Source: Myxococcales bacterium
Lineage (GTDB): Bacteria > Myxococcota_A > Polyangia > Polyangiales > Ga0077539
DNA length: 64,000 nt
Direction: 5' to 3'
Assembly (NCBI GenBank): GCA_013298625.1
Contig: JAAFIF010000032.1
Location: forward strand, 17,329-81,328
This document shows positions 4,179-44,592 of this stretch, in pieces. How positions within the stretch are numbered: position 1 is the first letter of the stretch; each line of letters opens with the position of its first letter. The translations under genes were made by a program, and so were the position numbers. Under the pieces are notes generated by a model. That model ran no database searches. It worked only from the letters and a program-made list of their open reading frames with translations, and was not told the origin of the DNA.

Positions 4179-4252
4179 CTAAACCAATACCGCGACGGTC
4201 GTCGTAGTTTTCTCTGTTCGCGGTCTTGGTTTGACTTGATTTCAACCGCGCT
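4179..4252. repeat. 74-nt structured repeat, copy 1
   Basis: ctaaaccaataccgcgacggtcgtcgtagttttctctgttcgcggtcttggtttgacttgatttcaaccgcgct. 69 of 74 nt are identical to 26302-26375. A hairpin pairs 4181-4195 (aaaccaa-t-accgcga) with 4218-4232 (tcgcggt-c-ttggttt) around a 22-nt loop. It fills almost the whole gap between two convergent genes. Confidence 0.85.
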
Positions 4253-26301: not shown

Positions 26302-26375
26302 CTAAACCAATACCGCGACGGTCGTCGTAGTTTTCTCTGTTCGCGGTCTTGGTTTGTCTGGATTTCAACCGCGCT
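26302..26375. repeat. 74-nt structured repeat, copy 2
   Basis: Same orientation as copy 1. The first 55 nt and last 14 nt are identical, and the 5 nt between differ (tctgg versus acttg). It sits exactly between the 5'-truncated chaC and Uma2 remnants. Confidence 0.85.
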
Positions 26376-26377
26376 GA

Positions 26378-26873
26378 TCCGCTTGGGCATCTTCGATGCC
26401 CGTCGCGGGCGCGGTATAGTACCCAGCGCGCTCGCGGTGATCGAGCGTGATCCTCGCGGGGTGCGACTTGCGATCGAGCCCGAGCGCCGTCATCACCCCG
26501 AGCAGCACGCGATCGCGACGGTTGTTCAACGCGGGCGCAGCTCCCTTCGCAAAGCGCCGAACAAACGCAGAGTGCGTCGCCTTCACCTCTGCGACCGCTG
26601 CCTCGAAACTCGGTCGTCTACGATCCGCAGCGGCAGCTCTCGGACGCGGTGCTGCAGAGCTTCGCGCTCAACGCGGGACAGTACGAAGAGCTCGAACGAC
26701 CGTGGTTCGAGCCGTTGGACCTCGGCCTCGCGCTGTAGCAAGGGGCCTTCGAGGGACGCGAAGACACGTGGCTTCGTTGGATCGACGCGCAGGGTACGTG
26801 GATTCCAACCGGCGCCGAGCGCGCCGAGCGATTGGCCGAGCGGCTGCGCGCGCTCGGAATCGATCCCGAGTGA
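26378..26873 (+). pseudogene. Uma2-family (DUF820) endonuclease remnant: 5'-truncated, frameshifted, in-frame TAG
   Basis: The frame ending at TGA 26871-26873 reads VVYDPQRQLSDAVLQSFALNAGQYEELERPWFEPLDLGLAL*QGAFEGREDTWLRWIDAQGTWIPTGAERAERLAERLRALGIDPE, with TAG at 26736-26738. This is the typical Uma2 C-terminus with its extension. Upstream pieces lie in other frames (RGRGIVPSALAVIERDPRGVR; ITPSSTRS...FAKRRTNAECV). The boundaries are approximate. Confidence 0.5.
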
Positions 26874-27002: not shown

Positions 27003-27111
27003 ATGCGCGGCGCGGTCGTGTCGGAGTGAGGGCGGCAACAAGGCGATGACCGATCGGGGCGCCAACGGCTGCCCCGTGCTCGTCCGACCGCCGTTGGATG
27101 TCCTATCCCCC
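27003..27111. repeat. hairpin repeat, copy E2 (long form)
   Basis: Direct repeat of 28892-29000. The 86-nt core (27023-27108) differs from E3 at 6 positions. Stem ccaacggc (27062-27069) pairs with gccgttgg (27090-27097). Confidence 0.8.
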
Positions 27112-27796: not shown

Positions 27797-27999
27797 GATC
27801 GTGGTTGGCGTCATGGGACCGGCCATAGCACTTCGTGAGCCAACGAGCGCTGCTGTCGAAACACTCTCGAACCACTGTCGAAGCGCTGTCAGCCTGGTCC
27901 CCTCGACTGCGCGCGTCTTGTGCCACCATCGTCGTCGCTACGACACTGCTGTCGCGTGCCCCTCTCGGTCCCATCGTTCACGCCGCATGAGAGGGCGTT

Positions 28000-28830
28000 G
28001 GAGTGCATTCGCAGGAGATCATGCGGCTCGCCGCAGCATGAGTTGGATCGACGCCAATTGCAGCATTGCGCGGCTTGATTCTGGCTTCCGTTCGTAGTCT
28101 TTCGACAGGCGCCTCGAGCGTCCAAGCCATGCGAAAGTCCGTTCGACGACCCACCGTTGAGGCAGTGGAACGAATTGATTCCGTGGTTCCGAGCGACGGA
28201 CGATGCGAAGCGCCATCCCGTTGTCGTTGGCCGCTTGCTGCAGCGGGAGACCGACGTAGGCGGAATCGGCCACCACCTCGACGAGCATCGGCTCGACGGC
28301 CTTGGCCTCCCGAAACAGCCTGGCGGCTGGCTGGGAGTCGTGCGTGTTCGCGGGGGTGATCGCGGTGACGATGGGAAGCCCCTCGCTGTCGACCACTGAT
28401 GTGCCGCTTTCTTCCCAGGATCTTTTTGTTGCCGTCGTAGCCGCGCGGACCGCCGCTCTCTGTGGTTTTCGCGGACTGGCTATCGACGATTGCGAGGCGC
28501 GCCGATGGGCCGCGTCCGGCGGCCCTTCTCGCATTTGGGCGGAGCGACTCCATGCTCTGGTCGAGCACGCCGTTGTCCCGCCACTGTTGAAAGTACTCGT
28601 AAACCGTCGACCAGTTGGGCAGGTCGTGCGGCATCATCCTCCGCGGAATTCCGGACCGCACGACGTACAGCAGTCCGTTCACGATCTCTCGTCGATCCAT
28701 GGGGTCTCGACCGGGGCTCGGCTTGGGAGCTGGCAGGAGATCACGCAGCAATTCCCACTGCTCGTCCGTCACATCGGTTGGGTACGAAGCTCGGCTCATC
28801 AACGCCTACGATGCCGCGTCTTTTCACTCC
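28000..28830 (-). mobile_element. IS5-family insertion sequence (ends approximate)
   Basis: It contains the transposase below. Both candidate ends carry GGAGTG (28000-28005, and cactcc at 28825-28830). The inverted repeats are weak and I saw no clear target duplication. Confidence 0.5.
28019..28802 (-). pseudogene. IS5-family DDE transposase split by a +1 frame change
   Basis: ORF 27978..28802 gives MSRASYPTDVTDEQWELLRDLLP...WSTVYEYFQQWRDNGV...IVDSQSAKTTESGGPRGYDGNKKILGRKRHI. ORF 28019..28534 continues SVVDSEGLPIVTAITPANTHDSQ...VVADSAYVG...RWVVERTFAWLGRSRRLSKDYE. Joining them at GRKRHI/SVVD needs a +1 shift. Confidence 0.8.
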
Positions 28831-28891: not shown

Positions 28892-29000
28892 GATCGCGGC
28901 GCGGTAGCAAAGGAGTGAGGGCGGAGACAAGGCGATGACCGATCGGGGCGCCAACGGCTGACGCGTGCTCGACCGACCGCCGTTGGATGGCCTATCCTCG
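28892..29000. repeat. hairpin repeat, copy E3 (long form)
   Basis: Stem ccaacggc (28951-28958) pairs with gccgttgg (28979-28986). It directly abuts the truncated 3' end of the DUF1624 remnant. Confidence 0.8.
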
Positions 29001-32785: not shown

Positions 32786-33931
32786 GTGCCCGACCACACG
32801 ATGGCAGAACCGCTGAAGCTCTTCTTCGACCGCGCGTTGGTGGGGCGAATCGCAGACTCGATCGCCGCCGCGCACCCTGGCTTCGCGCGCCGCTCGTTCG
32901 TGCGCGAAGCTACGGACGGGCTCGACGAGCTCGAACTCAAGGACCGCGCCAAGAAGATCTCCGACGCGATGGCCTCGCACCTGCCCGAGGACTTCGCCGA
33001 CGCCGCGCGGGTGCTCACCGCGTCGCTCGGCGCCAAGCACAAGAGCGACGAGCTCGAAGGCGCCGGAATGGAGCCGTTCTTCTACCTCCCACACACCATG
33101 TTCGTGGCCGAGCGCGGGCTCGATCACTTCGAAGAGTCAATGGCGCTTCAGCACGAGCTGACCCAGAGATTCACCTGTGAATTCTCGATCCGATCGTTTC
33201 TCGACCGACACCCCGAGGCCACCCTCGCGCGGCTCGCTCAGTGGACGATGGACCCGAGCCCGCACGTGCGACGGCTCGTGTCCGAAGGGACGCGACAGCG
33301 CCTTCCGTGGGCCCCTCGCGTGCGCCTGCTCGACGATCACCCCGAGCGCGCCCTCGCGCTCATCGAGGCCCTGCGGGACGACCCGAGCACCCTCGTCCGT
33401 CGCAGCGTGGCCAACCACCTCAACGACCTCACCAAGAGCCGCCCCGAGCTCGCCTACGCCGTCTGCGAACGGTGGCTCGCAGACGCGACGGTCGAGCGTC
33501 GCAAGCTCGTCGAGCACGCGCTGCGCAGCGCCGTGAAGCGCGCGGACAAGCGCGCCCTCGCGCTGCTCGGTCACGGCGAGAAGCCCAAGGTGAAGGTCGA
33601 AGACGTGCGGTTTTCTCCAGCGCGCGTCGCGATCGGCGAGAGCGTCCGCGTCGCGCTGTCCGTCAGAAGCACCGCGAGCGCGTCGCAGTCGCTCAACCTC
33701 GACCTCGCCGTGGACTTCGTGAAGCTGCGCGGCGTAAGCACCAAGGTGTTCAAGCTGCGTCGGGTCGAGCTCGGGCCGAAGGCTACGCTCGAGCTCGACA
33801 AGAGCGTCTCGCTCGCGGTGCACACCACGCGCACGCCCAACGTCGGCCGCCACGCGGTCGCGCTGCTCGTCAACGGGACGCGCGTCGAGCTCGGCGCGTT
33901 CGACGTCGTGGCCGCGAAGCGACGAGCATGA
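32786..33931 (+). CDS. DNA alkylation repair protein, AlkC-like (HEAT-like repeats plus C-terminal Ig-like domain)
   Basis: HVRRLVSEGTRQRLPWAPRV and DPSTLVRRSVANHLNDLTK match the AlkC/AlkD HEAT-like repeat family. The C-terminal 110 aa or so are beta-rich (VEDVRFSPARVAIGESVRVALSV...HAVALLVNGTRVELGAFDV). Confidence 0.75.
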   Translation: MPDHTMAEPLKLFFDRALVGRIADSIAAAHPGFARRSFVREATDGLDELELKDRAKKISDAMASHLPEDFADAARVLTASLGAKHKSDELEGAGMEPFFYLPHTMFVAERGLDHFEESMALQHELTQRFTCEFSIRSFLDRHPEATLARLAQWTMDPSPHVRRLVSEGTRQRLPWAPRVRLLDDHPERALALIEALRDDPSTLVRRSVANHLNDLTKSRPELAYAVCERWLADATVERRKLVEHALRSAVKRADKRALALLGHGEKPKVKVEDVRFSPARVAIGESVRVALSVRSTASASQSLNLDLAVDFVKLRGVSTKVFKLRRVELGPKATLELDKSVSLAVHTTRTPNVGRHAVALLVNGTRVELGAFDVVAAKRRA

Positions 33932-33981
33932 AGCGATCGACGCAGACCGCGCCATGACTCGCCCGTACACAAAAAACGGCG

Positions 33982-35151
33982 GTGATCTTCGTTGACGAGC
34001 GTCGCGCGCGCGAGGCAAACAGCGGCGCGACGACGCTCCGAATGCTGCAATCTTTCAAGGCAAGACAGCGATGGATCTCCGCGCTGCGCGAGGCGACGCT
34101 CGCGCTGATCGACGCCTCTGCGCCAGCGCCGCGGGGCGAGCAACCAGCTCGACCCAAGGACGACTTCGGAGCGCTCAAGCGCGAGGTGAGCGCCCTCGGA
34201 CTGCTGAGGCGAAGACCAAACTTGTACGTAGCGATCGTCGCGCGCACCTTCTCGATCGCGGCCGTCGCGTGGACCGCCCTCGCGCTCGCCCGCGGATCTT
34301 CGCTCGTGTGGCTCACGGCTCCGCTGCTCGCGTTCGCGTCGGGACAGCTCGTCTTGCTGGCGCACGACGCCTGTCACCACGCGGTGTTCGAGCGGCGCGA
34401 GGCGAACGACTGGCTCGGCCTGCTCGCGATCAACCTGCTCAACGGCGGGAGCTACACGTGGTGGACCGCCAGCCACAACGAGCACCACGCGCGGTCGAAC
34501 TACCGCGGGGCAGACCCAGACATCGAGTACCCCATGCTCGCGTTCGATCCTGCGCAGGCGGACGCGAAGCACCCGAGGTTCGAGCCGATCCTGGCCCGGC
34601 AGCACTGGCTATTGCCGCTGTTGCTCACTGGGGTCGCGCTCAACTTGAGGATCTACAGCGCAGCGAGGCTGCTCAGCGCGTCGGTCCGATGGCGCGAGCG
34701 CGTGGCGTTCGTCGCGCACTGGGTCGGGTATCCAGCGTTGCTCGTCGCGATGCTCGGCCCGTGGCGCGCGCTCGCGATGATGGTCCTGCACCAGGCGCTC
34801 TTCGGCGTCTACGTCGGCGCGATCACGATGAGCAACCACTGGGCCATGCCGATGCCCGAAGAGGGCTCGCTCGGCTTCGTCGAGCATCAGGTCAGCACCT
34901 CGCGCAACATCACGGGAGGCGCGCTCGCGGACCTCTGCTTCGGCGGACTCAACAAACAGATCGAGCATCATCTGTTTCCCTCGATGCCGCGGGTCAACCT
35001 GCGCCGGGCGACGCCGCTGGTGCGCGCGCACTGCGAGGCGCGAGAGATCGAGTACGTCGAGCGCTCGTTCACCGAGGCGGTTGTCGAGATCTACCGCGCG
35101 ATGCGCGGCGTCGCGCAGCATGTCCGCCGAACGCAGGAGTCGCGATCGTGA
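33982..35151 (+). CDS. membrane fatty-acid desaturase (front-end-type third His box)
   Basis: His boxes HDACHH, HNEHHA and QIEHHLFP. The start is uncertain: GTG 33982 or ATG 34042. Confidence 0.88.
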   Translation: MIFVDERRAREANSGATTLRMLQSFKARQRWISALREATLALIDASAPAPRGEQPARPKDDFGALKREVSALGLLRRRPNLYVAIVARTFSIAAVAWTALALARGSSLVWLTAPLLAFASGQLVLLAHDACHHAVFERREANDWLGLLAINLLNGGSYTWWTASHNEHHARSNYRGADPDIEYPMLAFDPAQADAKHPRFEPILARQHWLLPLLLTGVALNLRIYSAARLLSASVRWRERVAFVAHWVGYPALLVAMLGPWRALAMMVLHQALFGVYVGAITMSNHWAMPMPEEGSLGFVEHQVSTSRNITGGALADLCFGGLNKQIEHHLFPSMPRVNLRRATPLVRAHCEAREIEYVERSFTEAVVEIYRAMRGVAQHVRRTQESRS

Positions 35152-36467
35152 CCGACCCGCTCGCGCCGCTCGCCGATCGACTGCACAGCGCCCTGAGAGC
35201 GCTCCAGCGGCTGGGCGTGCGCGAGGCGCTCGCCCTCTCCGAGCAAGAGCTTCGCGGAACAGCCCACATGCTCGCGTGCGCTGTCTCGCTGCGTCGCTGG
35301 CAGCTCGAGCGGCGACGGCCGTCGTGGGACGAACTCTCGCTCGCGTGGGAGGACCTCGCCACGCAGACAGCGGCGAACGAGCCCTCGCTCTGCGCGACGC
35401 TGCACGACGAAGATCGCGTCGAGCTCGTCACCGACAACGCCGCGTCCTTCGCGCTGCGCGCGCGGTGGATCGCCGAGTCGCAGCGCAGCATCGAGCTCGC
35501 GACCTACTACTTGCAGGGAGACTCGACCGGCCAGCGCACGGTCGAGCAGCTGATCGCCGCAGCGCGCCGCGGCGTGCGGGTGCGGGTGATCGCCGACCGA
35601 TACGCGCTCAGCAAGAAGCAATACGAAGGGCTCGGGGCCGACGCGCTGGTCGATCGGCTCGTCGCGCACGGCGCGTCCGTGCAGCGCTGGTCCGACCCGA
35701 CGCGGCCTTACGACGTCAACCACCGCAAGCTGTTGATCGTCGACGATCGCAGGCTGCTCATCGGCGGCCGCAACATCGCCGATCACTACGCGGGGCCAGC
35801 CTGGCGAGACGTCGAGCTCGCCCTCGAAGGCCCGAGCGCACAGCGGGCGTCCTCGCTGTACGAGCGCACGGCGAGCGGCGCGGACGAGCCCGCGCTGCGA
35901 CCGGGGTCGCTCTTGTACGCGAGCACGCCGGCGCGCGTTCGAGAGCACAGCTACTGGGTGTTCTTGCTGCAATGCATCCGCGCCGCGAGAAGCACGGTAG
36001 ACATCGAAAACGCGTACCTCTTCGCGCACCCCGCGCTGCGGCGAGCGCTGGCCGCGGCCGTCCGCCGAGGCGTGCGCGCGAGGGTCCTGACCAACTCCGA
36101 CGAGACCAACGACCTCGGGTATGCGAACTACCGACTGTACACAGGGCTCACAGCGCTCTTCGACGCGGGCGTCGAGGTGCACGTGCGGCGCGGCGCAGGA
36201 CGAACGCTGCACTGCAAGTACTTCGTCGTCGATCAGCGCTGGGTGGGCCTCGGCAGCTCGAACCTCGACTACTACTCCGCTCGGTTCTGCACCGAAGCAA
36301 ACGTTCACGTCGAGAGCGCATCGCTCGCGCAGCAGTGCGCGCGCTGGTTCGAAGCGGGGATCGACGACGCGACGCGGCTCGCCGATCGCGCAGAGATCGT
36401 GAGCGCCGCGCGCAAGCACGCGCGGATCGGGCGAGTGATCGACGCGCTGCTCGAGGACACCCAGTGA
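35148..36467 (+). CDS. phospholipase D / cardiolipin synthase-like protein (two HKD motifs)
   Basis: GTG 35148 overlaps the desaturase stop (GTGA). HKD motifs are HRKLLIVDDRRLLIGGRNI and LHCKYFVVDQRWVGLGSSNL. Confidence 0.85.
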   Translation: MTDPLAPLADRLHSALRALQRLGVREALALSEQELRGTAHMLACAVSLRRWQLERRRPSWDELSLAWEDLATQTAANEPSLCATLHDEDRVELVTDNAASFALRARWIAESQRSIELATYYLQGDSTGQRTVEQLIAAARRGVRVRVIADRYALSKKQYEGLGADALVDRLVAHGASVQRWSDPTRPYDVNHRKLLIVDDRRLLIGGRNIADHYAGPAWRDVELALEGPSAQRASSLYERTASGADEPALRPGSLLYASTPARVREHSYWVFLLQCIRAARSTVDIENAYLFAHPALRRALAAAVRRGVRARVLTNSDETNDLGYANYRLYTGLTALFDAGVEVHVRRGAGRTLHCKYFVVDQRWVGLGSSNLDYYSARFCTEANVHVESASLAQQCARWFEAGIDDATRLADRAEIVSAARKHARIGRVIDALLEDTQ

Positions 36468-37633
36468 GCGCGCTGGTGTGGCGCGCGGCGAGCGCGATGC
36501 TGCTGTTGTCCTTCGTGATGTCGGCCAACGGCAACGTGCTGCCGCAGCTGTATTTTCAACGTCACGCGCCGAGCCAGAAGCTCTCTTGGCTCGCGGCCTC
36601 GCTGCTCTGCGCGACGATCGGTTCGATCGCGGGCGTCCTCTCGTCGCGCGCCCGCTCGAGCCACGGGAGCAGCGCGCTCGCGGCGGTGATCGTCGGGCTC
36701 ATCGCCGAGGTCGCGATGCTGCGCGCGCCTGCGCCGTCGGCGTTCGTGGCGCTGGCGGTCGTCGCGCAGTTCTCTGTGAATTATGCGCTCAACGCGATCG
36801 ACCACAGCGCGGTCCGCGCGAGCGGCGAGCAGAGGTCCCGCCATGATCGCGCGAGCACCGCGGCGCGGCTGCTGGGGATGTTGTCGGCGCCGGTGATCGT
36901 TCCGTCGTTGATCGACCGCGGACAAGCGCTGACGATCGGGCTCGTCGCAGCGGCGGTGGTGGCCGTGCCCTGCGCAGCTGCAGTGCTCGCCGCGGGCGCG
37001 GCTGCGAGAAGCGCCACACACGATGACGCCGAGCAGCGCGGCGAAGGACTCAGCCGCGACGATCGACGAATCCTCGGATTCTCCGTCGCCGTGTACGTCT
37101 CGCTCTATCTCGTCGCCGCCAACCTGATCTATCTGCTCAGAGACGTCGCGCGCATCGCAGACGCAGAGCGGCGCGGGGGAGCGACGCTGACCGTGGTGTT
37201 CTTCGGGGCCCTGCTCGGCGCGGCGCTGAGGCCGAAGCTCCGCGCGACGCACAAGCAGCCGCCCGATGTGGCGCACTTGCTCGCGCCGCTGCCGTGGCTC
37301 GTCATCGTACCCGCGGCGTTGAGCAGCGGATGGGCCGTGCCGTTCGCCGCGCTCGCGACGGGCGGCCTCGCGCTCGGAGCAACGTACGGAGTCTTTCTCG
37401 CCGCGCTTCGCGAGTACGTTTCGCGCGGCGCAAGCCAGCGCGCGCCTCTGCTCAGCGCGTTCAACAACCTCGCCAACACGAGCTCGCTCGTGGCCTTTGC
37501 GTTGCTCGCGCTGGCCGCGGCGCTGAGCGGCGGGCGCACCGCGCGCGCGTACCCTTACGTCATGGCGACGGCTGCGATGCTGCCGATCGCCGCGCTCTCG
37601 CTGCTCACGAGGCTACGTCCGCCGCGCGTGTAG
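36464..37633 (+). CDS. polytopic membrane protein (MFS-like)
   Basis: GTG 36464 overlaps the PLD stop (GTGA). It is 389 aa with 10-12 hydrophobic segments. I saw no diagnostic motif. Confidence 0.6.
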   Translation: MSALVWRAASAMLLLSFVMSANGNVLPQLYFQRHAPSQKLSWLAASLLCATIGSIAGVLSSRARSSHGSSALAAVIVGLIAEVAMLRAPAPSAFVALAVVAQFSVNYALNAIDHSAVRASGEQRSRHDRASTAARLLGMLSAPVIVPSLIDRGQALTIGLVAAAVVAVPCAAAVLAAGAAARSATHDDAEQRGEGLSRDDRRILGFSVAVYVSLYLVAANLIYLLRDVARIADAERRGGATLTVVFFGALLGAALRPKLRATHKQPPDVAHLLAPLPWLVIVPAALSSGWAVPFAALATGGLALGATYGVFLAALREYVSRGASQRAPLLSAFNNLANTSSLVAFALLALAAALSGGRTARAYPYVMATAAMLPIAALSLLTRLRPPRV

Positions 37634-39499
37634 CGGGACGAACCCGCGCAAACGCTCGCGCGTATAGTCGTAGCCGATGCGGACGAGCGCGTTGGCCGAG
37701 GCGACGTCGCCCGTGCCAAAATGCTCGACCGGCGGGCGCAAGAACAACTCAGCGTCCGTCGCCACCGCGTCCACGCGCCCCGGAACGCTGAACGACGCCG
37801 CGCGCAGAAACAGCTCGGGCAACAGCGGCGTTCGTATTCCGCCCGGTCGAACATGCTCCCACAGCGCGCGAAGCGACGTCGGATACCGCTCTGCAGGGTA
37901 GTCCACGGCGCGCTCCCGGCTCACGTCCACAGCGATCAACGTGCCTGGGCAACGAGCGCGCATGCGCGCGCCGGGCAGCGTGTCGCTCGTGCCGCCATCG
38001 ACCAGAATCCGACCACCCACCACGCGCGGCGGCAGCACGCCTGGCAGCGCAGCGCTCGCGAGCAACGCGTCCGCGACGAGCCCTCGTTCGAAGAGCACCT
38101 CTTCGAACCTCGAAATGTCACACGCGTTGCAGAAGAACGGCAGCCACAAGTCCTCGATGCACACCTCGCCAAACAGCGATCGAATGATCGACTCCATGCG
38201 CCGACCGCGCAGCAACGAGGTGAGCGGCAGCGTGAAGTCCGACAGCGGCCCAGACGCCACCGCCCGATCCGCAGCAGCGCGCATCGCGTCCGACGATCGC
38301 GCCATCGCGTAGTGCGCCGCCGCGACGGCGCCGATGCTGGCCCCTGCGATCTGATCGACCGCGATCCCCCCTTCTTCGAGCGCGCGAAGCGCGCCGACGT
38401 GCGCGAAGCCGCGGGCGCCGCCGCCGCCGAGCACGACGCCGACCGAGCGCCCCGCGACGGATCGAGCCAGGCTCGCGATGTCCTCGACGCGCCCGCGCCG
38501 CACGTGCCTGTGCTGCTGCACGTCGCGAGCGCGCAACCAGCGCGAGGTCCCCGACGGCAACGCAGTGTCAGCAGAGTGGGACAGCACCAGCGTTCGGCGA
38601 GCGTGTCGCGTAGAGCGAGCCTCGAAGAGCGAGCGCTCGAGCGCGTGCGGCACGGGCGAGCTCGACGCGTCCGCGAGCAGCAAGACGTGATCCGCTTCGG
38701 CGAGGATGCGACGGTTCCAAATCGTGTCGCGCCGGTCGCCTTCGAGCAAGACGAACCGGTGACGCTCGCCGAGCGCGTCGATCGACGCCGCGAAGTCCAG
38801 CCACGCCGGGTGCTCCTCGCGCCGAGTGTGCTCGGCGGTCGGCCCTAGCGCGCCGTCCGACCGCTGGTGGGACAGCGGCCCGAGCGCGCCGAGCTGCTCG
38901 GCGAGCTGCGCGCAGAACGCCTCCAGCGCGACCTCGGGACGCGCGGCCACAACGGCGACGCACTGGCATTGATGCGCAGGCCGCTCGCGCTCGATCGGGT
39001 GCAGCGAGCGTCGCAGCGCGAAGCGAAAGGCCCGACGCAGGGCGTCCGCGTCGAGCTCGCTCAGCGCGTCGACGTGCCCATCGAAGCGCAGCAGCACCGA
39101 GTCACGAAGGGCGATCGCGCTGTAACAGTGATCAACGCCGGCGAGCACGGCAGCGTCGCCGACGACCTCGCCGCGTCCGATCTCTGCGACGGACTCATCG
39201 AGCCCCGCGCGCAGGCGGCGCGTGAGCTCGAGGCGACCATGCGCGAGGACGAACCACGAGCGAGCGGGGTCTCCTTCGCGAAACAACGGTTCGCCTCGAT
39301 CGATCTCGACCCAGCGAGCCCGCGCGTCGAACGCGTCGAGCGATCGTTGGTCGAGCGGACCGAGCAGCGTCGGCAGCGCCTCTGCGAGCAGCGCGATTCG
39401 CTGCGCTTCGAGCCACTGGAGCCTCGCGGGATCGCGGGGCTCGCGGCAGGGGCCGCCCGAGGTCGAACCGTCGTCGCGCGCGCGCAGCTCGGTGCTCAT
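37613..39499 (-). CDS. patatin-like phospholipase with N-terminal cyclic-nucleotide-binding domain (NTE-like)
   Basis: ATG 39499 lies in the frame of ORF 37613..39691. cNMP-like segment FREGDPARSWFVLAHGRLEL...GRGEVVGDAAVL. Patatin motifs are GGGGARGFAHVG, GASIG and VDGG. Confidence 0.85.
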   Translation of the reverse strand: MSTELRARDDGSTSGGPCREPRDPARLQWLEAQRIALLAEALPTLLGPLDQRSLDAFDARARWVEIDRGEPLFREGDPARSWFVLAHGRLELTRRLRAGLDESVAEIGRGEVVGDAAVLAGVDHCYSAIALRDSVLLRFDGHVDALSELDADALRRAFRFALRRSLHPIERERPAHQCQCVAVVAARPEVALEAFCAQLAEQLGALGPLSHQRSDGALGPTAEHTRREEHPAWLDFAASIDALGERHRFVLLEGDRRDTIWNRRILAEADHVLLLADASSSPVPHALERSLFEARSTRHARRTLVLSHSADTALPSGTSRWLRARDVQQHRHVRRGRVEDIASLARSVAGRSVGVVLGGGGARGFAHVGALRALEEGGIAVDQIAGASIGAVAAAHYAMARSSDAMRAAADRAVASGPLSDFTLPLTSLLRGRRMESIIRSLFGEVCIEDLWLPFFCNACDISRFEEVLFERGLVADALLASAALPGVLPPRVVGGRILVDGGTSDTLPGARMRARCPGTLIAVDVSRERAVDYPAERYPTSLRALWEHVRPGGIRTPLLPELFLRAASFSVPGRVDAVATDAELFLRPPVEHFGTGDVASANALVRIGYDYTRERLRGFVPLHARRT

Positions 39500-39507
39500 C
39501 GCCGCGA

Positions 39508-40713
39508 TCACACCCGGTACATCGGCGCGTTGTTGCGAAAGTCCTTGGTGAACAGGATCTGAAAGAGCCCGCCCACCAGCGCATCGCAGCCTGCGACGTA
39601 GAGCGCGAGGAGGTAGTCGTACATGCGCACGAAGCGCGCGTCGTAGCGCGTCGAGTCGATGCGATGCTTGTTCGCGTTCCAGTTGGCCCACCAGTGCTTG
39701 GCGGTGGGAAGGTAGTGGCGGCCCATGTTCTCGACGTCGAGCACTGCGAGGTCGTTCTTCTCGAGCTGACGGATCGCCGAGCTGATGTTCGGATGGGTCG
39801 ACCCCGGAAAGATGTACTTCTGCACGAAGGGATCGGGGTCGTTTTTGCCCTTCACGCAGCCCATGAAGTGAACGAGCCCCCAGCCGTCGTCCTTCAGCAT
39901 CTTGTTGACGTGCTTGAAGTACGTCGGGTGCTCGTGCGGGTACAAATGCTCGAACATTCCGATCGAAGCGACCCGGTCGAACACGCCGCGCGTCTGACGA
40001 AAATCGCCGTACTCGACGCTCACCAGGTCCTCAAGCCCAAGGTGCCGAGCGCGCCTCATCACCCACTCCGCCTGGTTCTTCGCGATCGTCACGCCGCGAC
40101 CCTTCACGCCGTGCTTCTGAGCGGCGTAGATCAGCAGCCCACCCCACCCGCAGCCGATGTCGAGCAGCGTGTGCCCCCGCTCGACGCGAAGCTTCTGGCA
40201 GACGCGCTCGTACTTGTTCTCTTGCAGCTGCTGCAGCGTGTCTTCAGCGGTCTTCTGGTAGCCGCACGTGTAGCCCATGGTCTCGTCCAGAAAGAGCTCG
40301 TACACGTCGTTGCCGACGTCGTAGTGGAGCTGAACGTTGGACTCGGCCCCGGTCAGCGCGTGCTGCACGCGCATCGCGGCGACCCTGAGCAACACTTGCG
40401 GATGATCTCGGAGGTGCCGGTCCATATCCGCCCGCGCGAACGCCGTCAGCAGCGCGTCGAGCGTGCCGACCTCGAGGGTCCAACCCTCTTCCATAAACGA
40501 CTCGGCGAGCCCCAGGTTTCCGCTCGTCAGGATGCGTCGCGCGAAATTGGGATCGGTCACGCGCAGCACAAAGTCCGGGTCCGTCGAGGCGCTGGCGCTG
40601 CGACCGATGTCCCAGATCCGATCTGGGAGCACGAAGCGCATGCGCTTCGCGGTCATCGCGTGGTCCAGCATCGAGAACAGCGCTTGGTCAGCGGTAGGAA
40701 TCAGTTGAACCAT
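39508..40713 (-). CDS. cfa: cyclopropane-fatty-acyl-phospholipid synthase family methyltransferase
   Basis: ATG 40713, preceded by a GAGGA Shine-Dalgarno. Motifs: HYDVGNDVYELFLDETMGYTCGY, the SAM motif LLDIGCGWGGL, and SIGMFEH. Confidence 0.88.
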   Translation of the reverse strand: MVQLIPTADQALFSMLDHAMTAKRMRFVLPDRIWDIGRSASASTDPDFVLRVTDPNFARRILTSGNLGLAESFMEEGWTLEVGTLDALLTAFARADMDRHLRDHPQVLLRVAAMRVQHALTGAESNVQLHYDVGNDVYELFLDETMGYTCGYQKTAEDTLQQLQENKYERVCQKLRVERGHTLLDIGCGWGGLLIYAAQKHGVKGRGVTIAKNQAEWVMRRARHLGLEDLVSVEYGDFRQTRGVFDRVASIGMFEHLYPHEHPTYFKHVNKMLKDDGWGLVHFMGCVKGKNDPDPFVQKYIFPGSTHPNISSAIRQLEKNDLAVLDVENMGRHYLPTAKHWWANWNANKHRIDSTRYDARFVRMYDYLLALYVAGCDALVGGLFQILFTKDFRNNAPMYRV

Positions 40714-40941
40714 CGTCAGTCGTATCCTCGTGGATGGCGACCGCAGCGGCGTCACGCCAGCGATCACCGTCGCGCAGGCGCGTTGATTATGTGTGTGTAT
40801 CCATCCGCCGCGGTCGGTCGCCGCGCGCACATACCGTGCGCGTCGCAGCGATGTCTACGCGCGAGACGCGAGCGCGTCACCCGACGCGAGCAGACTCGGC
40901 GTAGCGAACGATGACAAGACCTTGCACCGGCGGCGTTCGCG

Positions 40942-41862
40942 CTACCGCAGCGCCTCGATCTGCCCCTCTTCGAGCGCGAGCACGTAGCCCCCGCCCGGGA
41001 TCAACCCGAGCACCGTCCGCGCCGCGGTGAACGGCGGCTCGGACTCTCCGCTCGCCGTCGTGCGGCTCACGTGCCGGCCAAACGCGCTCACCACCGTCGA
41101 ACCGTCGAAGCACGCGGTGTGGCCTTCGCCCGAGAGCGCTCCCCGCGCGCCGTCCCCGTGAAAGATCCTCCATCCGCCGTCGCGCGCGACCGCCAGCAGC
41201 CGCCCGTCGATCGAGCGAGACAACGTGCGCGGCCAGTCCATCCCCTCGCGATGCGCGCGCGTCAACGTCAGCGTCGCCAGCGAGAGCAGGTGCACGTCGT
41301 CGCCGCGCTCGTCCGGCGCGCCGTCGGTCGGCCGCGAGGTCAGGACCAACACCGTCGCGTCGTCGACGAAGGCCGCCGCGGCGCTCTCGTAGGCCCCCAC
41401 GCTCACGTGCGTCGAGCGCGAGCGCTGGACGTCCAGCAACACGAGGTGCGCGCACTCTTTGTCAGCGGTGCTCGCGCTGACAGCCAACAGACGCTCGCCG
41501 TTCGGCGACCAGTCGAGCTGCGTCACCGTCGCCGGTCCGCGCGCGGGGTCGTGCACCGACAGCCTGGCGATCACGACGCCGTCCCGCGCTTCGCGAAGCT
41601 CGACGTGAGGCTCGTCGAGCTCGGGCCCGCCGGTGACAGCCACTGCGACTCGGCCGCCGTCCGGAGACGCTGCGATGGCGGTCACCGCGCCCGCGGAGTC
41701 AGGCCACGAAACGGTCTTCCAATTGAAGAAATCCAGCGCGTACAGCGCAGAGGGAGCGCTGCTCACCACGACCAACGAGCCCTCTGCGTTGCCGCCGAAG
41801 TCGCTCGAAAACGTCGTCTTGACCTTCACGGTCTTCGGACCCCTGGCTGCCTTCGTCGTCAT
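40942..41862 (-). CDS. hypothetical beta-propeller-like (WD40-like) protein
   Basis: ATG 41862 lies in the frame of ORF 40942..42402. Repeated blade-like segments (AIAASPDGGRVAVAV, LDWSPNGERLLAVSA, SIDGRLLAVARDGGWRIF). Confidence 0.6.
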   Translation of the reverse strand: MTTKAARGPKTVKVKTTFSSDFGGNAEGSLVVVSSAPSALYALDFFNWKTVSWPDSAGAVTAIAASPDGGRVAVAVTGGPELDEPHVELREARDGVVIARLSVHDPARGPATVTQLDWSPNGERLLAVSASTADKECAHLVLLDVQRSRSTHVSVGAYESAAAAFVDDATVLVLTSRPTDGAPDERGDDVHLLSLATLTLTRAHREGMDWPRTLSRSIDGRLLAVARDGGWRIFHGDGARGALSGEGHTACFDGSTVVSAFGRHVSRTTASGESEPPFTAARTVLGLIPGGGYVLALEEGQIEALR

Positions 41863-41919: not shown

Positions 41920-42207
41920 ATGGCGTTGCGATTGCACAGAACGGCCATTGCAACGAGCGAACGAGCAGCTTCCGCGACGCTCGACGAGCTCGTCGGCGCA
42001 GCGGCGATCGTCGCCACTCTGTCGTTTTCGCCCGTCCTCGCGTGGCGCTATCGGCGCTGGGGAGCGACGGACGAAGAGCGCCTCCGCGCGATGCCGGGCG
42101 ACGCGCTGGTTTCTGCGCCGAAGCTGCAATCGACGCGCGCGATCGACATCGACGCCCCGCCCGAGGCCGTCTGGCCCTGGCTCGTGCAGCTCGGGCACGA
42201 GCGCCTG
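41920..42207 (+). pseudogene. SRPBCC-family protein, N-terminal 96 codons only
   Basis: MALRLH...WRYRRWGATDEERLRAMPGDALVSAPKLQSTRAIDIDAPPEAVWPWLVQLGHER is the conserved N-terminus of a widespread SRPBCC family. The reading frame runs into the foldback repeat at 42208, and no continuation exists downstream. Confidence 0.7.
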
Positions 42208-42808
42208 ATGGTTGCCCAACAGCTGCCTGGAGAAACAGCGGCGAAAGAGCCCGGAGCCCAAGGGCTCATGGTTACCCAGATTCTCCTTGGAGAAACAGCG
42301 GCGAAAGAGCCCGCAGCCCAAGGGGCCGGGCATCAGCGCCCGCACCGTTACCGGTGTTCTCTTCGGGCGAAGCGCAGCGGTCTCGCGACCGCAGCTAGCC
42401 AATGGAGCTCGGCGAGCACTCTCGTTGCCTTGCCACGGTCCTCACTGAAGACACGATCCTCGACGCGATCACCGTCGCGGCGCCGCTGCATCGAGCGATG
42501 GTCGTGACCGAGTCGAGGACTGAGTTTTCAGCGAGGACCGCGGACGAGCATCGCGCGTTCGATGGTTCGCCATTGGCTAGCTGCGGTCGCGAGACCGCTG
42601 CGCCTCGCACCGAAGGTGCGCTGTTGCCCGCCCCCTTGGGCTGCGGGTCGCTGTGCCGCTGTTTCTCCACACAAGACTTGGGCAACCATGAGGCCCAAGG
42701 GGCCGGGCACTTTCGCTGCTGTTTCTCCACGCAGAATTTGGGCAACCATGAGCCCTTGGGCTCCGGGCCCTTCGCCTGTGATTCTCCACAAAAGATTTGG
42801 GTAACCGT
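42208..42808. repeat. foldback element: inverted arms built from tandem 60-nt units around a 164-bp centre
   Basis: Units lie at 42208-42267 and 42268-42327 (forward) and at 42630-42689, 42690-42749 and 42750-42808 (reverse complement). A perfect 34-nt inverted repeat sits at 42372-42405 / 42570-42603. Confidence 0.85.
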
Positions 42809-42939
42809 GAGGGCTCGTCTCCCGGGGCGCAGCGCAACGGATCGTCCCGCGATGCCCCGCGCGAAACGCTCGGCGCGAGGTATACCGATGCGATCCGCGT
42901 CACGCGGAGCTGCCCACGAAACGGAGAGTTGCCCACTTG

Positions 42940-44592
42940 ATGTCGATGAAGCGAAGCCCCCCTGTCCTCGCCGCCACGCTCGCGCTCAGCGCCGCGTGCT
43001 CGGCGCCCGAAACCATGCCGGACGCGCGCGTCGATCGCGACGCGACGACCACGATGGACGCGGCGGCCGACGTCGCAGTGGACGCGAGCGCGCCGGTCGA
43101 CACCGGCGTGCAAACGGACACCGGCGTCGACACCGGCGTCGCGCCGCAATGCCCGATGGGGCAGACCCGCTGCGGAGACACCTGCGCCAACCTTCAAGAC
43201 GACGCGACCCACTGCGGCGCCTGCGGCAACGCCTGCCCTGCGGGCCAGAGCTGCATCGCCGGTCGTTGCGGCTGTCCGATGGGACAAGAGCTCTGCTCGG
43301 GCGCGTGCGTCGACCCGCGCACGAGCACGATGAACTGTGGTGCGTGCGGCAACGCCTGCCCGATGGGGCAGATGTGCGTCGCCGGCGCGTGCCGCGTGGA
43401 CTGTCCCCTGCCGCGGACCATCTGCGGAGCGGGCGCTGCGATGGAGTGCGTCGACGCCGCCAACGACGCGCGCCACTGCGGGAGCTGCAACAACGCGTGC
43501 CCGACGCCCGCCAACGCCGCGAGCGCGTGCGTGATGGGCAGCTGCGGCCTCGGCGCGTGCAGCGCGGGCTTCGCCAACTGCGACAGCAACGCGGCCAACG
43601 GCTGCGAGGTCGACACGCGCAGCGACGCGCGCAGCTGCGGGACGTGCGGGACGGTGTGCCCGGCGCTTCCCAACGCGATGGGCGCGTGCGCGATGGGCAT
43701 GTGCGGCCTCGGCGCGTGCAACCCCGGCTTCGCGGACTGCGACGGCAACGCGGCCAACGGCTGCGAAGTGGACACGCGCAGGGACACGGGCAACTGCGGG
43801 CGATGCGGCGCCGCGTGTGCGCCGATCGCCAACGGAACCAACGTGTGCAACGCGGGCGTGTGCGGCATCGCCGGATGCAACGCTGGCTTCGCCAACTGCG
43901 ACGGCAACGCCGCGACGGGCTGCGAGATCGACACACGAACCAACATGGCGAACTGCGGCGGCTGCGGCAGCGTGTGCGGCGCGCTCGCCAACGGGACGAG
44001 CGTGTGCGCCGCGAGCCAGTGCCGAGTGGCCTCGTGCAACGCGGGCTTCGCAGACTGCAACGGCGCTCCCAACGACGGATGCGAGACCAACGTCAACACC
44101 AGCGCGAGCCACTGCGGTCGCTGCGGGATGGTGTGCCCTGGCGGCCAGATGTGCATCGCGGGGGCGTGCATCGCTGCGCCGACCACGGTGACGTTTCCCT
44201 CCGCGGGCTCGACGCTCGGCGTCTCGCCTGCGACGACGCTGGGCGCGGTCGGGACGAACCGCTACTACCAGACGGGCGACTTCGTGACCGAGACGTTCAT
44301 GCGGACGTCCGCGACCACGCAGCTCGACATCAGCTTCTCGATGAACGACTTCACCGCGGGCTGCGCCGTCGGACAAGCCCTCTCGTGGAACGTTCTGGTC
44401 AACGGCGCGGTCGTCGGCACCTTCGGCTGGTCCGGCGGATCCGCGGTGAATCCACGCACGGTGACGCAGTCGTACGTGTTCGCCCCTCGCCCTGCGGGCG
44501 CGGTGACGCTTCGATTTCAAGCGACCACCACCGTGTGCCCGGGCGGCAACTCGTGGGTGTGGGCCCCCGGCGGGACCGCGACCCTTCGCTGA
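42940..44592 (+). CDS. large Cys-rich repeat lipoprotein with C-terminal beta-sandwich-like domain
   Basis: ATG 42940 lies 11 nt after GGAGAG. Lipobox LAATLALSAAC. About 9 repeats carry (H/N)CG.CG..C and GC(E)(V/I)DT motifs. The last 150 aa or so are Cys-poor (TVTFPSAGSTLGV...WNVLVNGAVVGTFGW...). Confidence 0.8.
   Translation: MSMKRSPPVLAATLALSAACSAPETMPDARVDRDATTTMDAAADVAVDASAPVDTGVQTDTGVDTGVAPQCPMGQTRCGDTCANLQDDATHCGACGNACPAGQSCIAGRCGCPMGQELCSGACVDPRTSTMNCGACGNACPMGQMCVAGACRVDCPLPRTICGAGAAMECVDAANDARHCGSCNNACPTPANAASACVMGSCGLGACSAGFANCDSNAANGCEVDTRSDARSCGTCGTVCPALPNAMGACAMGMCGLGACNPGFADCDGNAANGCEVDTRRDTGNCGRCGAACAPIANGTNVCNAGVCGIAGCNAGFANCDGNAATGCEIDTRTNMANCGGCGSVCGALANGTSVCAASQCRVASCNAGFADCNGAPNDGCETNVNTSASHCGRCGMVCPGGQMCIAGACIAAPTTVTFPSAGSTLGVSPATTLGAVGTNRYYQTGDFVTETFMRTSATTQLDISFSMNDFTAGCAVGQALSWNVLVNGAVVGTFGWSGGSAVNPRTVTQSYVFAPRPAGAVTLRFQATTTVCPGGNSWVWAPGGTATLR

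What the first reader, a model, noticed from the sequence alone, without database searches (positions are those of the whole stretch)
41920..42808. 601-bp foldback element made of tandem 60-nt subrepeats has replaced most of an SRPBCC gene
What the sequence shows:
- Two head-to-tail 60-nt units lie at 42208-42267 and 42268-42327 (atggttRcccaR..tggagaaacagcggcgaaagagcccgSagcccaagggSc).
- Three units of the same family lie in reverse complement at 42630-42689, 42690-42749 and 42750-42808.
- Inside them, a perfect 34-nt inverted repeat (42372-42405 and 42570-42603) brackets a 164-bp unique centre.
- The 34-mer itself contains a local hairpin, gcggtc-tcgc-gaccgc.
- The arms are 198 and 239 bp. They differ by one unit and by short, non-homologous linker hairpins (caccg-ttac-cggtg on the left, gcacc-gaa-ggtgc on the right).

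Context:
- The left end cuts an ORF after codon 96. That ORF has the conserved N-terminus of an SRPBCC family (RRWGATDEE...APPEAVWPWLVQLG), and the rest of the gene is absent.
- The element encodes no transposase.
- It ends 131 nt upstream of the large Cys-rich lipoprotein gene on the same strand. Read-through RNA would therefore fold into an imperfect hairpin of about 200 bp.

Long terminal inverted repeats built from tandem subrepeats are the hallmark of eukaryotic foldback transposons. I am not aware of a described bacterial counterpart.
Basis: partly seen in the sequence, partly recalled or inferred. Interest (0 to 1): 0.75.

Follow-up and report, generated by a model that had tools for sequence, protein, structure and literature searches.

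The report
Modular palindromic repeat element, multi-copy family
The 0.6-kb foldback is real, and it is one copy of a rare, non-coding, modular palindromic repeat family found in a few uncultured myxobacteria-like lineages; it resembles known bacterial mosaic repeats more than a proven transposon.

Summary
The described structure is in the sequence. There are two 60-nt units on the left and three inverted units on the right. A perfect 34-nt inverted repeat (H) flanks a 164-bp centre. The whole stretch 42190-42826 folds into one hairpin (-453 kcal/mol, z = -19).

Homology to the upstream gene family stops at codon 92-95, and the rest of that gene is not in the window.

It is not a one-off. Searching with the arms translated as peptides picked up spurious ORFs in other assemblies. 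Six contigs retrieved this way, from five ENA and JGI samples, carry the same modules at 75-94% identity. Module number and orientation vary. Solo arms exist. Some copies carry a group II intron or a small TA-duplicating MITE.

H is the most conserved module (93%), then the centre (85%), then the units (80%).

- Nothing in it is coding.
- It has no Rfam match.
- Five aligned cores show no compensatory base-pair changes.
- I found no target-site duplication and no transposase next to it.

A relative with 93% nucleotide identity lacks window 42062-42866. That gap is a deletion between short imperfect direct repeats, not a clean empty site.

Best reading: a new BIME/BOX/MITE-like interspersed palindromic repeat family. 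Transposition is unproven. Interest is moderate.

The parts
40942..41862 (-). Left neighbour: WD40-like beta-propeller gene (306 aa), divergent from the truncated gene.
   Evidence: Weak WD40 Pfam hits. An orthologue lies in the same position in relative L029.
41920..42204 (+). 5' remnant (92-95 codons) of a gene of the RWGATxxE...WPWLVQxGxGR family, putatively SRPBCC. It is a pseudogene; the open frame runs on into the repeat as far as 42507.
   Evidence: 128 homologues. tblastn ends at 42195-42204. Alignment A2. GC3 of 0.8-0.93 drops to about 0.6 after 42200. Pfam Polyketide_cyc2 reaches only E = 0.06.
42190..42207 (.). Left junction zone. CTCGGGCACGAGCGCCTG resembles the degenerate partial unit that precedes terminal units elsewhere (CCCGGGAGACGAGCCCTC), so the exact breakpoint is ambiguous.
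   Evidence: Arm-to-arm alignment. Comparison with L032, L034, L035 and L037.
42208..42327 (+). Two tandem 60-nt U units. Each holds two short palindromes: TTCTnCnnGGAGAA and GAGCCCAAGGGCTC.
42328..42371 (+). Left linker La, with the hairpin caccg-ttac-cggtg (42343-42356).
   Evidence: It is homologous to Lb apart from an indel of about 18 nt. It is conserved in L033, L034 and L037.
42372..42405 (+). H: the 34-nt left arm of the perfect inverted repeat, containing gcggtc-tcgc-gaccgc and CTAG. It is the most conserved module of the family.
   Evidence: Fifteen copies have a mean pairwise identity of 93%.
42406..42569 (.). Centre C, 164 bp. It is quasi-palindromic with a small apical loop, and it is non-coding.
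   Evidence: Folds. Seven copies have a mean identity of 85%. About 13 amino-acid changes in 68 codons against P0243, counted by eye.
42570..42603 (-). H': the right arm of the perfect 34-nt inverted repeat.
42604..42629 (-). Right linker Lb, with the hairpin gcacc-gaa-ggtgc. In copy L034 a group II intron sits 6 nt after this hairpin.
42630..42808 (-). Three tandem U units in reverse complement. The middle unit carries the flipped form of the CCCAAGGG palindrome.
42809..42840 (-). Degenerate partial unit that forms the right terminus (reverse complement ...GCGCCCCGGGAGACGAGCCCTC).
   Evidence: The same motif lies between U units in L037, P0247 and P0248.
42062..42866 (.). Segment absent from the 93%-identical relative L029. 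It is bounded by the imperfect direct repeats CGCTGGGGAGCGA (42055-42067) and CGCTCGGCGCGAG (42869-42881).
   Evidence: blastn. Three-way junction alignment.
42940..44592 (+). Right neighbour: MXAN_6577-like cysteine-rich lipoprotein gene with 159-nt internal repeats.
   Evidence: NCBIfam NF041328, 148.8 bits. Pfam Stig1. Tandem repeats.

Best explanation
Window ~42193-42840 is one copy of a rare, lineage-restricted family of non-coding, modular palindromic interspersed repeats.

The modules are:
- a 60-nt unit U, in tandem arrays of 1-3;
- a linker hairpin, in two length variants (La and Lb);
- a highly conserved 34-nt module H;
- a ~164-nt quasi-palindromic centre C.

The unit-linker-H arm and its inverse face each other across the centre, so the locus is a ~640-bp imperfect hairpin or cruciform.

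Shown:
- The family is dispersed over different loci and samples.
- It is built as a mosaic.
- It is not protein-coding, and there is no evidence that it is an RNA under selection for structure.

Inferred:
- It is selfish or neutral repeat DNA of the MITE/BIME/BOX kind.
- It spreads and reshuffles mainly by recombination among its own palindromic modules: unit-number changes, inversion of the centre between the H arms, and solo arms. It may also be mobilised in trans by an enzyme not encoded here.
- At this locus it became joined, probably through microhomology, to the broken end of an already decaying gene.
- Being a long palindrome, it is prone to deletion. That fits the 805-bp microhomology-flanked deletion in the close relative.
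- If transcribed from the pseudogene promoter, it would form a long double-stranded RNA upstream of the lipoprotein gene.
For: Structure and statistics.

Other copies:
- A profile of the translated arms found spurious ORFs P0241-P0244 and P0245-P0249.
- Retrieved contigs L032-L037 carry U, linker, H and C at 75-94% identity to the window.
- Counting the window, there are 21 U units, 15 H copies and 7 centres.

Mosaic arrangement:
- L033 reads U+[K]U+[K']U-U-[K..., where K is linker-H-centre-H'-linker.
- L034 and L037 are similar.
- Solo arms lie in L032 and in L035/L036, between a kinase gene and an HTH_5/rhodanese gene.
- P0241 and P0246 join La to the end of the centre that is joined to Lb in the window, which implies an inverted centre.

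Non-coding:
- Units of 59-61 nt break any reading frame.
- GC3 is low in the frame of the upstream gene.
- Most changes are non-synonymous.

No known RNA and no selection for structure:
- No Rfam match.
- No tRNA or tmRNA.
- Pairing is 93.5%, but covariation equals shuffle level.

Loss in a relative.

Landing pad for other mobile elements: a group II intron and a TA-duplicating MITE inside the CTAG of H'.
Against: - Only one copy is visible in the 64-kb window, and the rest of the source genome could not be searched.
- Neither a 22-nt H core nor a 24-nt H pattern with one degenerate base has a hit in 185,579 species-representative genomes.
- Only 8 spurious ORFs match the arm profile among 1.84 billion representatives. 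Abundance is therefore far below that of classical REP or BOX families.
- The short metagenomic contigs that show the mosaics (0.9-1.9 kb) could be partly mis-joined by the assembler.
- The strong conservation of H hints at a sequence-specific protein partner that I have not identified.
- Five cores are too few to exclude selection on structure.
Confidence: 0.68

Rival explanations
1. It is a genuine non-autonomous foldback-type transposon. The U arrays would be multiple transposase-binding sites in the two ends, as in Tn7, Mu or eukaryotic FB elements. The element would have inserted into the gene and be mobilised in trans by a transposase encoded elsewhere.
For: - It is multi-copy at unrelated loci.
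- Units are direct within an end and inverted between ends, with unequal numbers (2 against 3).
- The unit-proximal H is strongly conserved.
- It is present in the window and absent in a relative at the same locus.
- The left flank resembles the terminal partial unit, which could reflect target preference.
Against: - No target-site duplication is visible at the window copy, nor at the L034 and L035 ends.
- The relative's gap does not coincide with the element's ends. It extends about 143 bp further left and about 26-40 bp further right, and it is flanked by microhomology.
- U orientation relative to linker-H is not fixed.
- Cores share U arrays, and solo arms exist.
- No autonomous copy was seen and no transposase lies next to any copy.
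- The only transposase-like ORF in the window is an IS4/5-type ORF 14 kb away.
- A bona fide MITE from the same lineage does show clear inverted ends and a TA duplication, by contrast.
Confidence: 0.2
2. It is a functional cis-acting element or RNA. It might be a long hairpin that terminates, insulates or stabilises transcripts. It might be a protein-binding array that regulates the downstream cysteine-rich lipoprotein gene.
For: - The fold is very stable on both strands.
- It lies about 100-130 nt upstream of the lipoprotein gene, on the same strand as the pseudogene promoter.
- Each unit holds two dyad-symmetric motifs suited to dimeric binding proteins.
- REP, BIME and BOX elements are reported to affect expression of neighbouring genes (PMC3049150).
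Against: - The relative keeps the lipoprotein gene without the element.
- The one other copy with readable genes around it (L035/L036) sits in an unrelated gene context.
- There is no covariation above shuffle level.
- There is no Rfam match.
- The consensus scan finds no terminator beyond chance.
Confidence: 0.08
3. It is a local accident: a one-off inverted duplication made by template switching, or an assembly artefact at a palindrome.
For: - Palindromes are classic assembler artefacts.
- There is only one copy in the window.
Against: - Independent assemblies from at least five other samples contain the same modules in the same inverted arrangement.
- Those copies carry their own substitutions.
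- The two arms in the window differ by about 10-20% and by one unit, which is unlike a collapse or chimera artefact.
Confidence: 0.03

Closest known systems
BOX elements of Streptococcus pneumoniae (boxA, tandem boxB copies, boxC)
   Same: - Both are non-coding, modular, interspersed repeats.
- Both have a variable number of tandem sub-modules between outer modules that pair into a tight stem-loop.
- BOX sizes reach about 640 bp.
- BOX elements occur in clusters and inside one another.
- No transposase is encoded in either (PMC3049150).
   Different: - There is no sequence similarity to BOX.
- Here the tandem units lie in both arms and pair with each other.
- There is a large palindromic core of about 230-300 bp.
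- GC content is 64%.
- Abundance is very low, and the host is a different phylum.
REP / BIME clusters and REPINs of Proteobacteria
   Same: - Both are mosaics of short palindromic units in alternating orientation with variable linkers.
- Both are intergenic.
- Both are favoured landing sites for insertion sequences (PMC2817692, PMC3116915, PMC1525189, PMC3333891).
   Different: - The modules have no GTAG or CGTC tag at the unit end.
- No RAYT (Y1 transposase) was seen.
- Units are 60 nt rather than 20-40 nt.
- The copy number appears low.
Bacterial MITEs (for example Correia, Nezha, ERIC)
   Same: - It is small and non-autonomous.
- It is inverted-repeat rich and folds tightly.
- It is dispersed and can disrupt genes.
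   Different: - No target-site duplication was found.
- No defined terminal inverted repeat lies at the true ends.
- No partner insertion sequence with matching ends was found.
- The inverted repeat spans the whole element and is built of tandem units.
Eukaryotic Foldback (FB) transposons (from my own knowledge)
   Same: - Long inverted arms are made of tandem sub-repeats.
- Arm lengths are variable and unequal.
- The central segment is short.
   Different: - Mobility, target-site duplication and an associated transposase are not shown here.
- The host is prokaryotic.
- The resemblance is architectural only.

Membership tests
MITE (miniature inverted-repeat transposable element) | Terminal inverted repeats at defined ends | tested here: inconclusive
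   Inverted repeats cover the whole element. The termini are degenerate partial units and differ between copies.
MITE (miniature inverted-repeat transposable element) | Target-site duplication flanking the insertion | tested here: not met
   There is no direct repeat at 42190-42207 against 42827-42845, nor at the L034 and L035 ends. A different MITE from the same lineage shows a clear TA duplication.
MITE (miniature inverted-repeat transposable element) | Multiple dispersed copies | tested here: met
   Copies lie in L032-L037 and in P0241, P0246, P0247 and P0249, from at least five samples. Copy number within the source genome could not be tested.
MITE (miniature inverted-repeat transposable element) | Partner autonomous element with matching ends | tested here: not met
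   No transposase lies beside any copy. The window's IS4/5-like ORF at 27978-28802 shares no sequence with the element. Whole genomes were not searchable.
MITE (miniature inverted-repeat transposable element) | Precise empty site in a relative | tested here: not met
   Relative L029 lacks 42062-42866. That is a deletion flanked by imperfect direct repeats, and it also removes gene codons 48-95.
Foldback (FB-type) transposon | Long inverted arms composed of tandem sub-repeats, of variable length | tested here: met
   The window has 2 against 3 (plus a partial) 60-nt units. Other copies have 1-3 units.
Foldback (FB-type) transposon | Demonstrated transposition (target-site duplication, excision, associated transposase) | tested here: not met
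   Same evidence as for the MITE rows. Mobility itself cannot be tested with these tools.
REP / BIME | Palindromic units of 20-40 nt with a conserved GTAG or CGTC tag | tested here: not met
   There is no GTAG or CTAC anywhere in 42205-42840. CGTC occurs only at two non-homologous positions.
REP / BIME | Association with a RAYT (Y1 transposase) gene and more than 100 copies per genome | not testable with these tools
   No such gene appeared among the window ORFs scanned. The genome outside the window is unavailable.
BOX-like modular repeat | Outer modules that pair, with a variable number of tandem inner modules; non-coding | tested here: met
   Searches show this by architecture only. BOX is defined by its own sequences, and those were not compared here.
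Known structured RNA family (Rfam 15) | Match to a covariance model, or significant covariation | tested here: not met
   There are no matches at E <= 1. Covariation equals shuffle level on five cores.
CRISPR array | Conserved repeats separated by unique spacers | tested here: not met
   The whole 60-nt period is conserved between units, so there are no unique spacers.

The most novel reading that the evidence does not exclude
The family could be a true prokaryotic foldback-type mobile element, or the substrate of a dedicated sequence-specific recombinase. That enzyme would recognise the invariant 34-nt H and/or the GCCCAAGGGC dyads. It would insert, invert and amplify the modules. This would be a mobilisation system with no described bacterial equivalent.
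Probability: 0.17. Interest if true: 0.7.

Novelty: new member of a known kind. Interest (0 to 1): 0.42.

Why it matters
- It adds a previously undescribed interspersed repeat family from poorly sampled, uncultured relatives of the Polyangia.
- It shows that imperfect palindromes of about 0.6 kb can persist in a bacterial chromosome.
- The locus is an example of pseudogene decay and deletion around such a palindrome.
- The family acts as a landing pad for a group II intron and a TA-specific MITE.
- The near-invariant 34-nt module is a concrete handle for finding the protein, if any, that acts on these repeats.
- In practice, such elements break assemblies and generate spurious ORFs. All nine database 'proteins' that match it (P0241-P0249) appear to be artefacts of this kind.

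Tried and rejected
1. Exact-pattern scans of the species-representative genomes found no copy.
   - Two unit patterns gave only chance or coding hits in unrelated taxa.
   - Two H patterns gave zero hits.
   - The source genome itself was never hit by these scans, so it is either not in that collection or is masked there.

2. The single metagenome scan with the unit pattern hit only low-GC Bacteroidota genes that encode an ...EMVTQLxFGET... peptide. This is a by-product of the chosen pattern and is not related.

3. There were no matches in viral contigs, phage records or plasmid records.

4. The WD40-like neighbour gave no related loci in the representative genomes. The lipoprotein is not on record as an exact sequence.

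5. More distant GH130-anchored loci are not syntenic on the relevant side: L030, L031 and the P0123 contig. The Polyketide_cyc2 gene next to GH130 in L031 is not the orthologue of the truncated gene.

6. The contigs of P0241 (13.5 kb, NCBI) and P0246 could not be retrieved.

7. Coding hypothesis for the 20-residue periodicity. One inward frame has GC3 of about 0.8 by my hand count on the unit consensus (supported by the frame plot). I rejected it because unit lengths of 59-61 nt break the frame and substitutions are mostly non-synonymous.

8. RNA-structure selection: no covariation.

9. Other readings rejected:
   - CRISPR, rejected on inspection.
   - tRNA.
   - Intrinsic terminator.
   - parS, by eye only.

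10. Literature searches for myxobacterial MITE or REP families found nothing specific.

Full report
**1. Observation**

- Two head-to-tail 60-nt units lie at 42208-42327. Three lie in reverse complement at 42630-42808.
- A perfect 34-nt inverted repeat sits at 42372-42405 / 42570-42603. It extends to 39 nt at 97%. It flanks 164 bp.
- A 26-nt unit core occurs three times in the window against none in shuffles.
- The stretch 42190-42830 folds into one long hairpin of -453 kcal/mol. Shuffles give -278 +/- 9, so z = -19. The minus strand behaves the same way, with z = -15.

Some details need correcting.
- The centre is itself a quasi-palindrome with only a small apical loop.
- The two 'non-homologous' linkers are homologous, apart from an indel of about 18 nt.
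- Similarity between the arms, and to other family members, continues to about 42826-42840 as a degenerate partial unit.

**2. The truncated gene**

- The first 96 codons from 41920 have 128 homologues. All are unnamed and none has a Pfam domain on record.
- tblastn with 40 of these homologues stops at 42195-42204. It finds no C-terminal part anywhere in the window.
- The family motif WPWLVQxGxGRAGxYSYD is cut after ...WPWLVQLGHER.
- GC3 in this frame falls from 0.8-0.93 to about 0.6 at the junction.
- The left flank CTCGGGCACGAGCGCCTG resembles the partial unit CCCGGGAGACGAGCCCTC that precedes terminal units elsewhere. I therefore place the breakpoint at 42193-42207, probably at a microhomology.
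- The 'SRPBCC' label is plausible but weakly supported. Pfam Polyketide_cyc2 reaches only E = 0.06 and NCBIfam gives nothing.

**3. What it is not**

- It matches no Rfam family at E <= 1.
- It contains no tRNA or tmRNA.
- The consensus scan finds no terminator or promoter signal beyond chance.
- It has no Pfam hit.
- It has no plasmid or phage match.
- It is not coding. Units vary between 59 and 61 nt. A second copy of the centre differs by about 13 amino acids in 68 codons, counted by eye.

**4. A close relative**

- The neighbouring GH130 gene has a 96%-identical protein on JGI contig Ga0556162_0028253, fetched as L029.
- L029 is collinear with the window at 93% nucleotide identity but lacks window 42062-42866.
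- It keeps codons 1-47 of the truncated gene, with an in-frame TGA at codon 15.
- It then joins directly to the sequence 70 nt upstream of the lipoprotein gene.
- The junction lies between imperfect direct repeats: CGCTGGGGAGCGA at 42055-42067 and CGCTCGGCGCGAG at 42869-42881.

Codons 48-95 are genuine gene sequence, so the L029 state must derive from a deletion. It is not a precise empty site. Whether the ancestor of that deletion already carried the element cannot be decided from these data.

**5. Other copies**

DNA pattern scans failed (see section 7). I therefore translated both arms reading inwards and searched for spurious ORFs.
- The word-index search returned four 'proteins'.
- An exhaustive HMMER search of 1.84 billion representatives returned eight.

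I retrieved these contigs:
- L032 (ENA ERZ27280349)
- L033 (ENA ERZ28594039)
- L034 (ENA ERZ27280352)
- L037 (ENA ERZ965217, wastewater)
- L035 (JGI 3300055001, the same sample as L029)
- L036 (JGI 3300056999)

All of them carry the unit U, a linker and H. L033, L034 and L037 also carry the centre C. Identity to the window is 75-94%.

Counting the window, there are 21 U units, 15 H copies and 7 centres. Mean pairwise identities are 80% for U, 93% for H and 85% for C.

The arrangement is a mosaic. K below stands for linker-H-centre-H'-linker.
- L033 reads U+ [La H C H' Lb] U+ [Lb' H C' H' La'] U- U- [Lb' H ...
- L034 reads U+U+U+ [K] {group II intron} U-U- [K] U-, then unique flank.
- L037 reads (U+)3 [K] U+ partial-U U+ [K'] U- ...
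- L032, L035 and L036 have a solo arm (U-Lb'-H) followed by other palindromic modules.

The solo arm in L035/L036 lies between a kinase gene and an HTH_5/rhodanese gene. P0241 and P0246 join La to the end of the centre that is joined to Lb in the window. This implies that the centre can be inverted between the H arms.

**6. Other mobile elements use it as a landing pad**

- In L034 an ORF-less group II intron (Rfam RF02001, 94.6 bits, E = 4e-19) starts 6 nt after the Lb hairpin.
- In L037 a MITE of about 110 bp sits inside the CTAG of H'. It has inverted ends of about 17 nt and a TA duplication.
- The same MITE family occurs in the window at about 26302-26424 (again in CTAG) and, truncated, at 4179-4252.
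- This textbook MITE contrasts with the foldback, for which I found no target-site duplication at any end.

**7. Rarity**

- Two unit patterns gave only chance or coding matches in the 185,579 species-representative genomes. Two H patterns gave none.
- There is nothing in viral contigs.
- The JGI metagenome scan hit only an unrelated Bacteroidota coding motif.
- The family is therefore confined to a few poorly sampled lineages and is not abundant. The exact-pattern scans are insensitive to diverged copies.

**8. Structure versus selection**

On five aligned cores, 116 predicted pairs are 93.5% paired. Double-sided changes and the covariation score are at the level of the shuffles. The pairing is therefore explained by the inverted-repeat ancestry of the arms. 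There is no evidence for an RNA under structural selection, although five sequences are few.

**9. Mechanism**

Shown:
- It is a dispersed, modular, non-coding palindromic repeat.
- Module number and orientation vary between copies.
- H is the most conserved module.
- The locus differs between close relatives by a microhomology-flanked deletion.

Inferred:
- The family behaves as selfish or neutral repeat DNA.
- It is reshuffled by recombination among its own dyads, producing unit gain and loss, inversion of the centre and solo arms.
- It may be seeded at new loci by an enzyme acting in trans.
- At this locus it was joined to a decaying gene at a microhomology.
- Its hairpin or cruciform potential makes it prone to deletion.

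No transposase lies beside any copy. The only transposase-like ORF in the window is an IS4/5 (DUF4096) ORF at 27978-28802. It is 14 kb away and unrelated in sequence. The other window ORFs scanned are ordinary genes.

**10. Comparison with known families and verdict**

- By architecture the closest described bacterial elements are pneumococcal BOX elements. These have tandem boxB copies between pairing boxA and boxC, reach 637 bp, and cluster and nest (PMC3049150).
- REP/BIME/REPIN mosaics are also close, and they are known targets for insertion sequences (PMC2817692, PMC3116915, PMC1525189, PMC3333891).
- The family fails the REP tag test: there is no GTAG or CGTC tag.
- It fails the MITE tests for target-site duplication, empty site and partner element.
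- It meets only the architectural criterion of eukaryotic foldback elements.

I file it as a new member of the known kind 'interspersed modular palindromic repeats'. It is unusual for the length of its palindrome and for its low abundance. A true foldback-type transposon, or a recombinase-driven system, remains possible at about 0.17-0.2. Interest is moderate.

Noticed in passing
window 26302-26424 and 4179-4252; L037 449-545: This is a small MITE of about 110-120 bp with inverted ends of about 17 nt (AACCAnnACCGCGACGG...CCGTCGCGGGCGCGGT). It is inserted in CTAG with a TA duplication, which is IS630/Tc1-like behaviour. The window has one full copy and one truncated copy, 97% identical over 74 nt. 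In L037 the same family is inserted inside the 34-nt H' of a foldback copy.
   Followed up: partly
L034 600-1278: An ORF-less group II intron (Rfam RF02001, 94.6 bits; RF01998, 34.4 bits) lies inside a foldback copy. It starts GTGCGCCC 6 nt after the Lb hairpin CGCACCGAAGGTGCG. This is reminiscent of introns that home to stem-loops.
   Followed up: partly
window 33922-40938: A 7-kb segment is absent from the 93%-identical relative L029. It carries a fatty-acid desaturase, a patatin/cNMP-binding phospholipase and a cyclopropane-fatty-acid synthase-like gene. GC is only 0.59-0.67 over about 39.5-40.8 kb, the stretch profiled. It looks like a lipid-modification islet gained or lost recently.
   Followed up: partly
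window 27978-28802 (-) and repeats at 27006-27108 / 28895-28997, 22017 / 27078 / 28967: There is an IS4/IS5-family transposase N-terminal domain (DUF4096, E = 1e-25). Duplicated segments of about 100 nt and a 34-nt motif present three times surround it. The ends of the insertion sequence were not resolved.
   Followed up: partly
L032 1-1158; L035 10745-10870: Further families of palindromic modules accompany the foldback arms. One is a ~95-nt repeat (GGTAACCGTTCAGGCCCCCCCATGC...AATGGACACACGGCCAGAGGGCAAGCC) present four times in L032. Another is the module CACGGCCAGAGGCAAGCCTCAGGCCTTTGCGCGACGAAGCGTCGCGGAGCGGGC, found in L032 and L035. L032 1-220 also has many TGTCCTAGAC iterations. None of these is present in the window.
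   Followed up: no
window 42940-44592: The downstream gene is an MXAN_6577-like cysteine-rich lipoprotein (NCBIfam NF041328). It has four 159-nt (53-residue) tandem repeats at 43450-44085, and the copies are 64-79% identical to the first one.
   Followed up: partly
database proteins P0241-P0249: All nine database 'proteins' that match the translated arms appear to be spurious ORFs called across copies of this repeat, or antisense to a kinase gene in the case of P0245. They are annotation artefacts.
   Followed up: yes
window 3088-3309: The C-terminal half of one homologue of the truncated gene (P0048) gives a weak tblastn match here (35% identity, E = 8e-4). It lies inside a 711-codon ORF and may be a distant paralogous domain. 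It is not the missing 3' part of the truncated gene.
   Followed up: no
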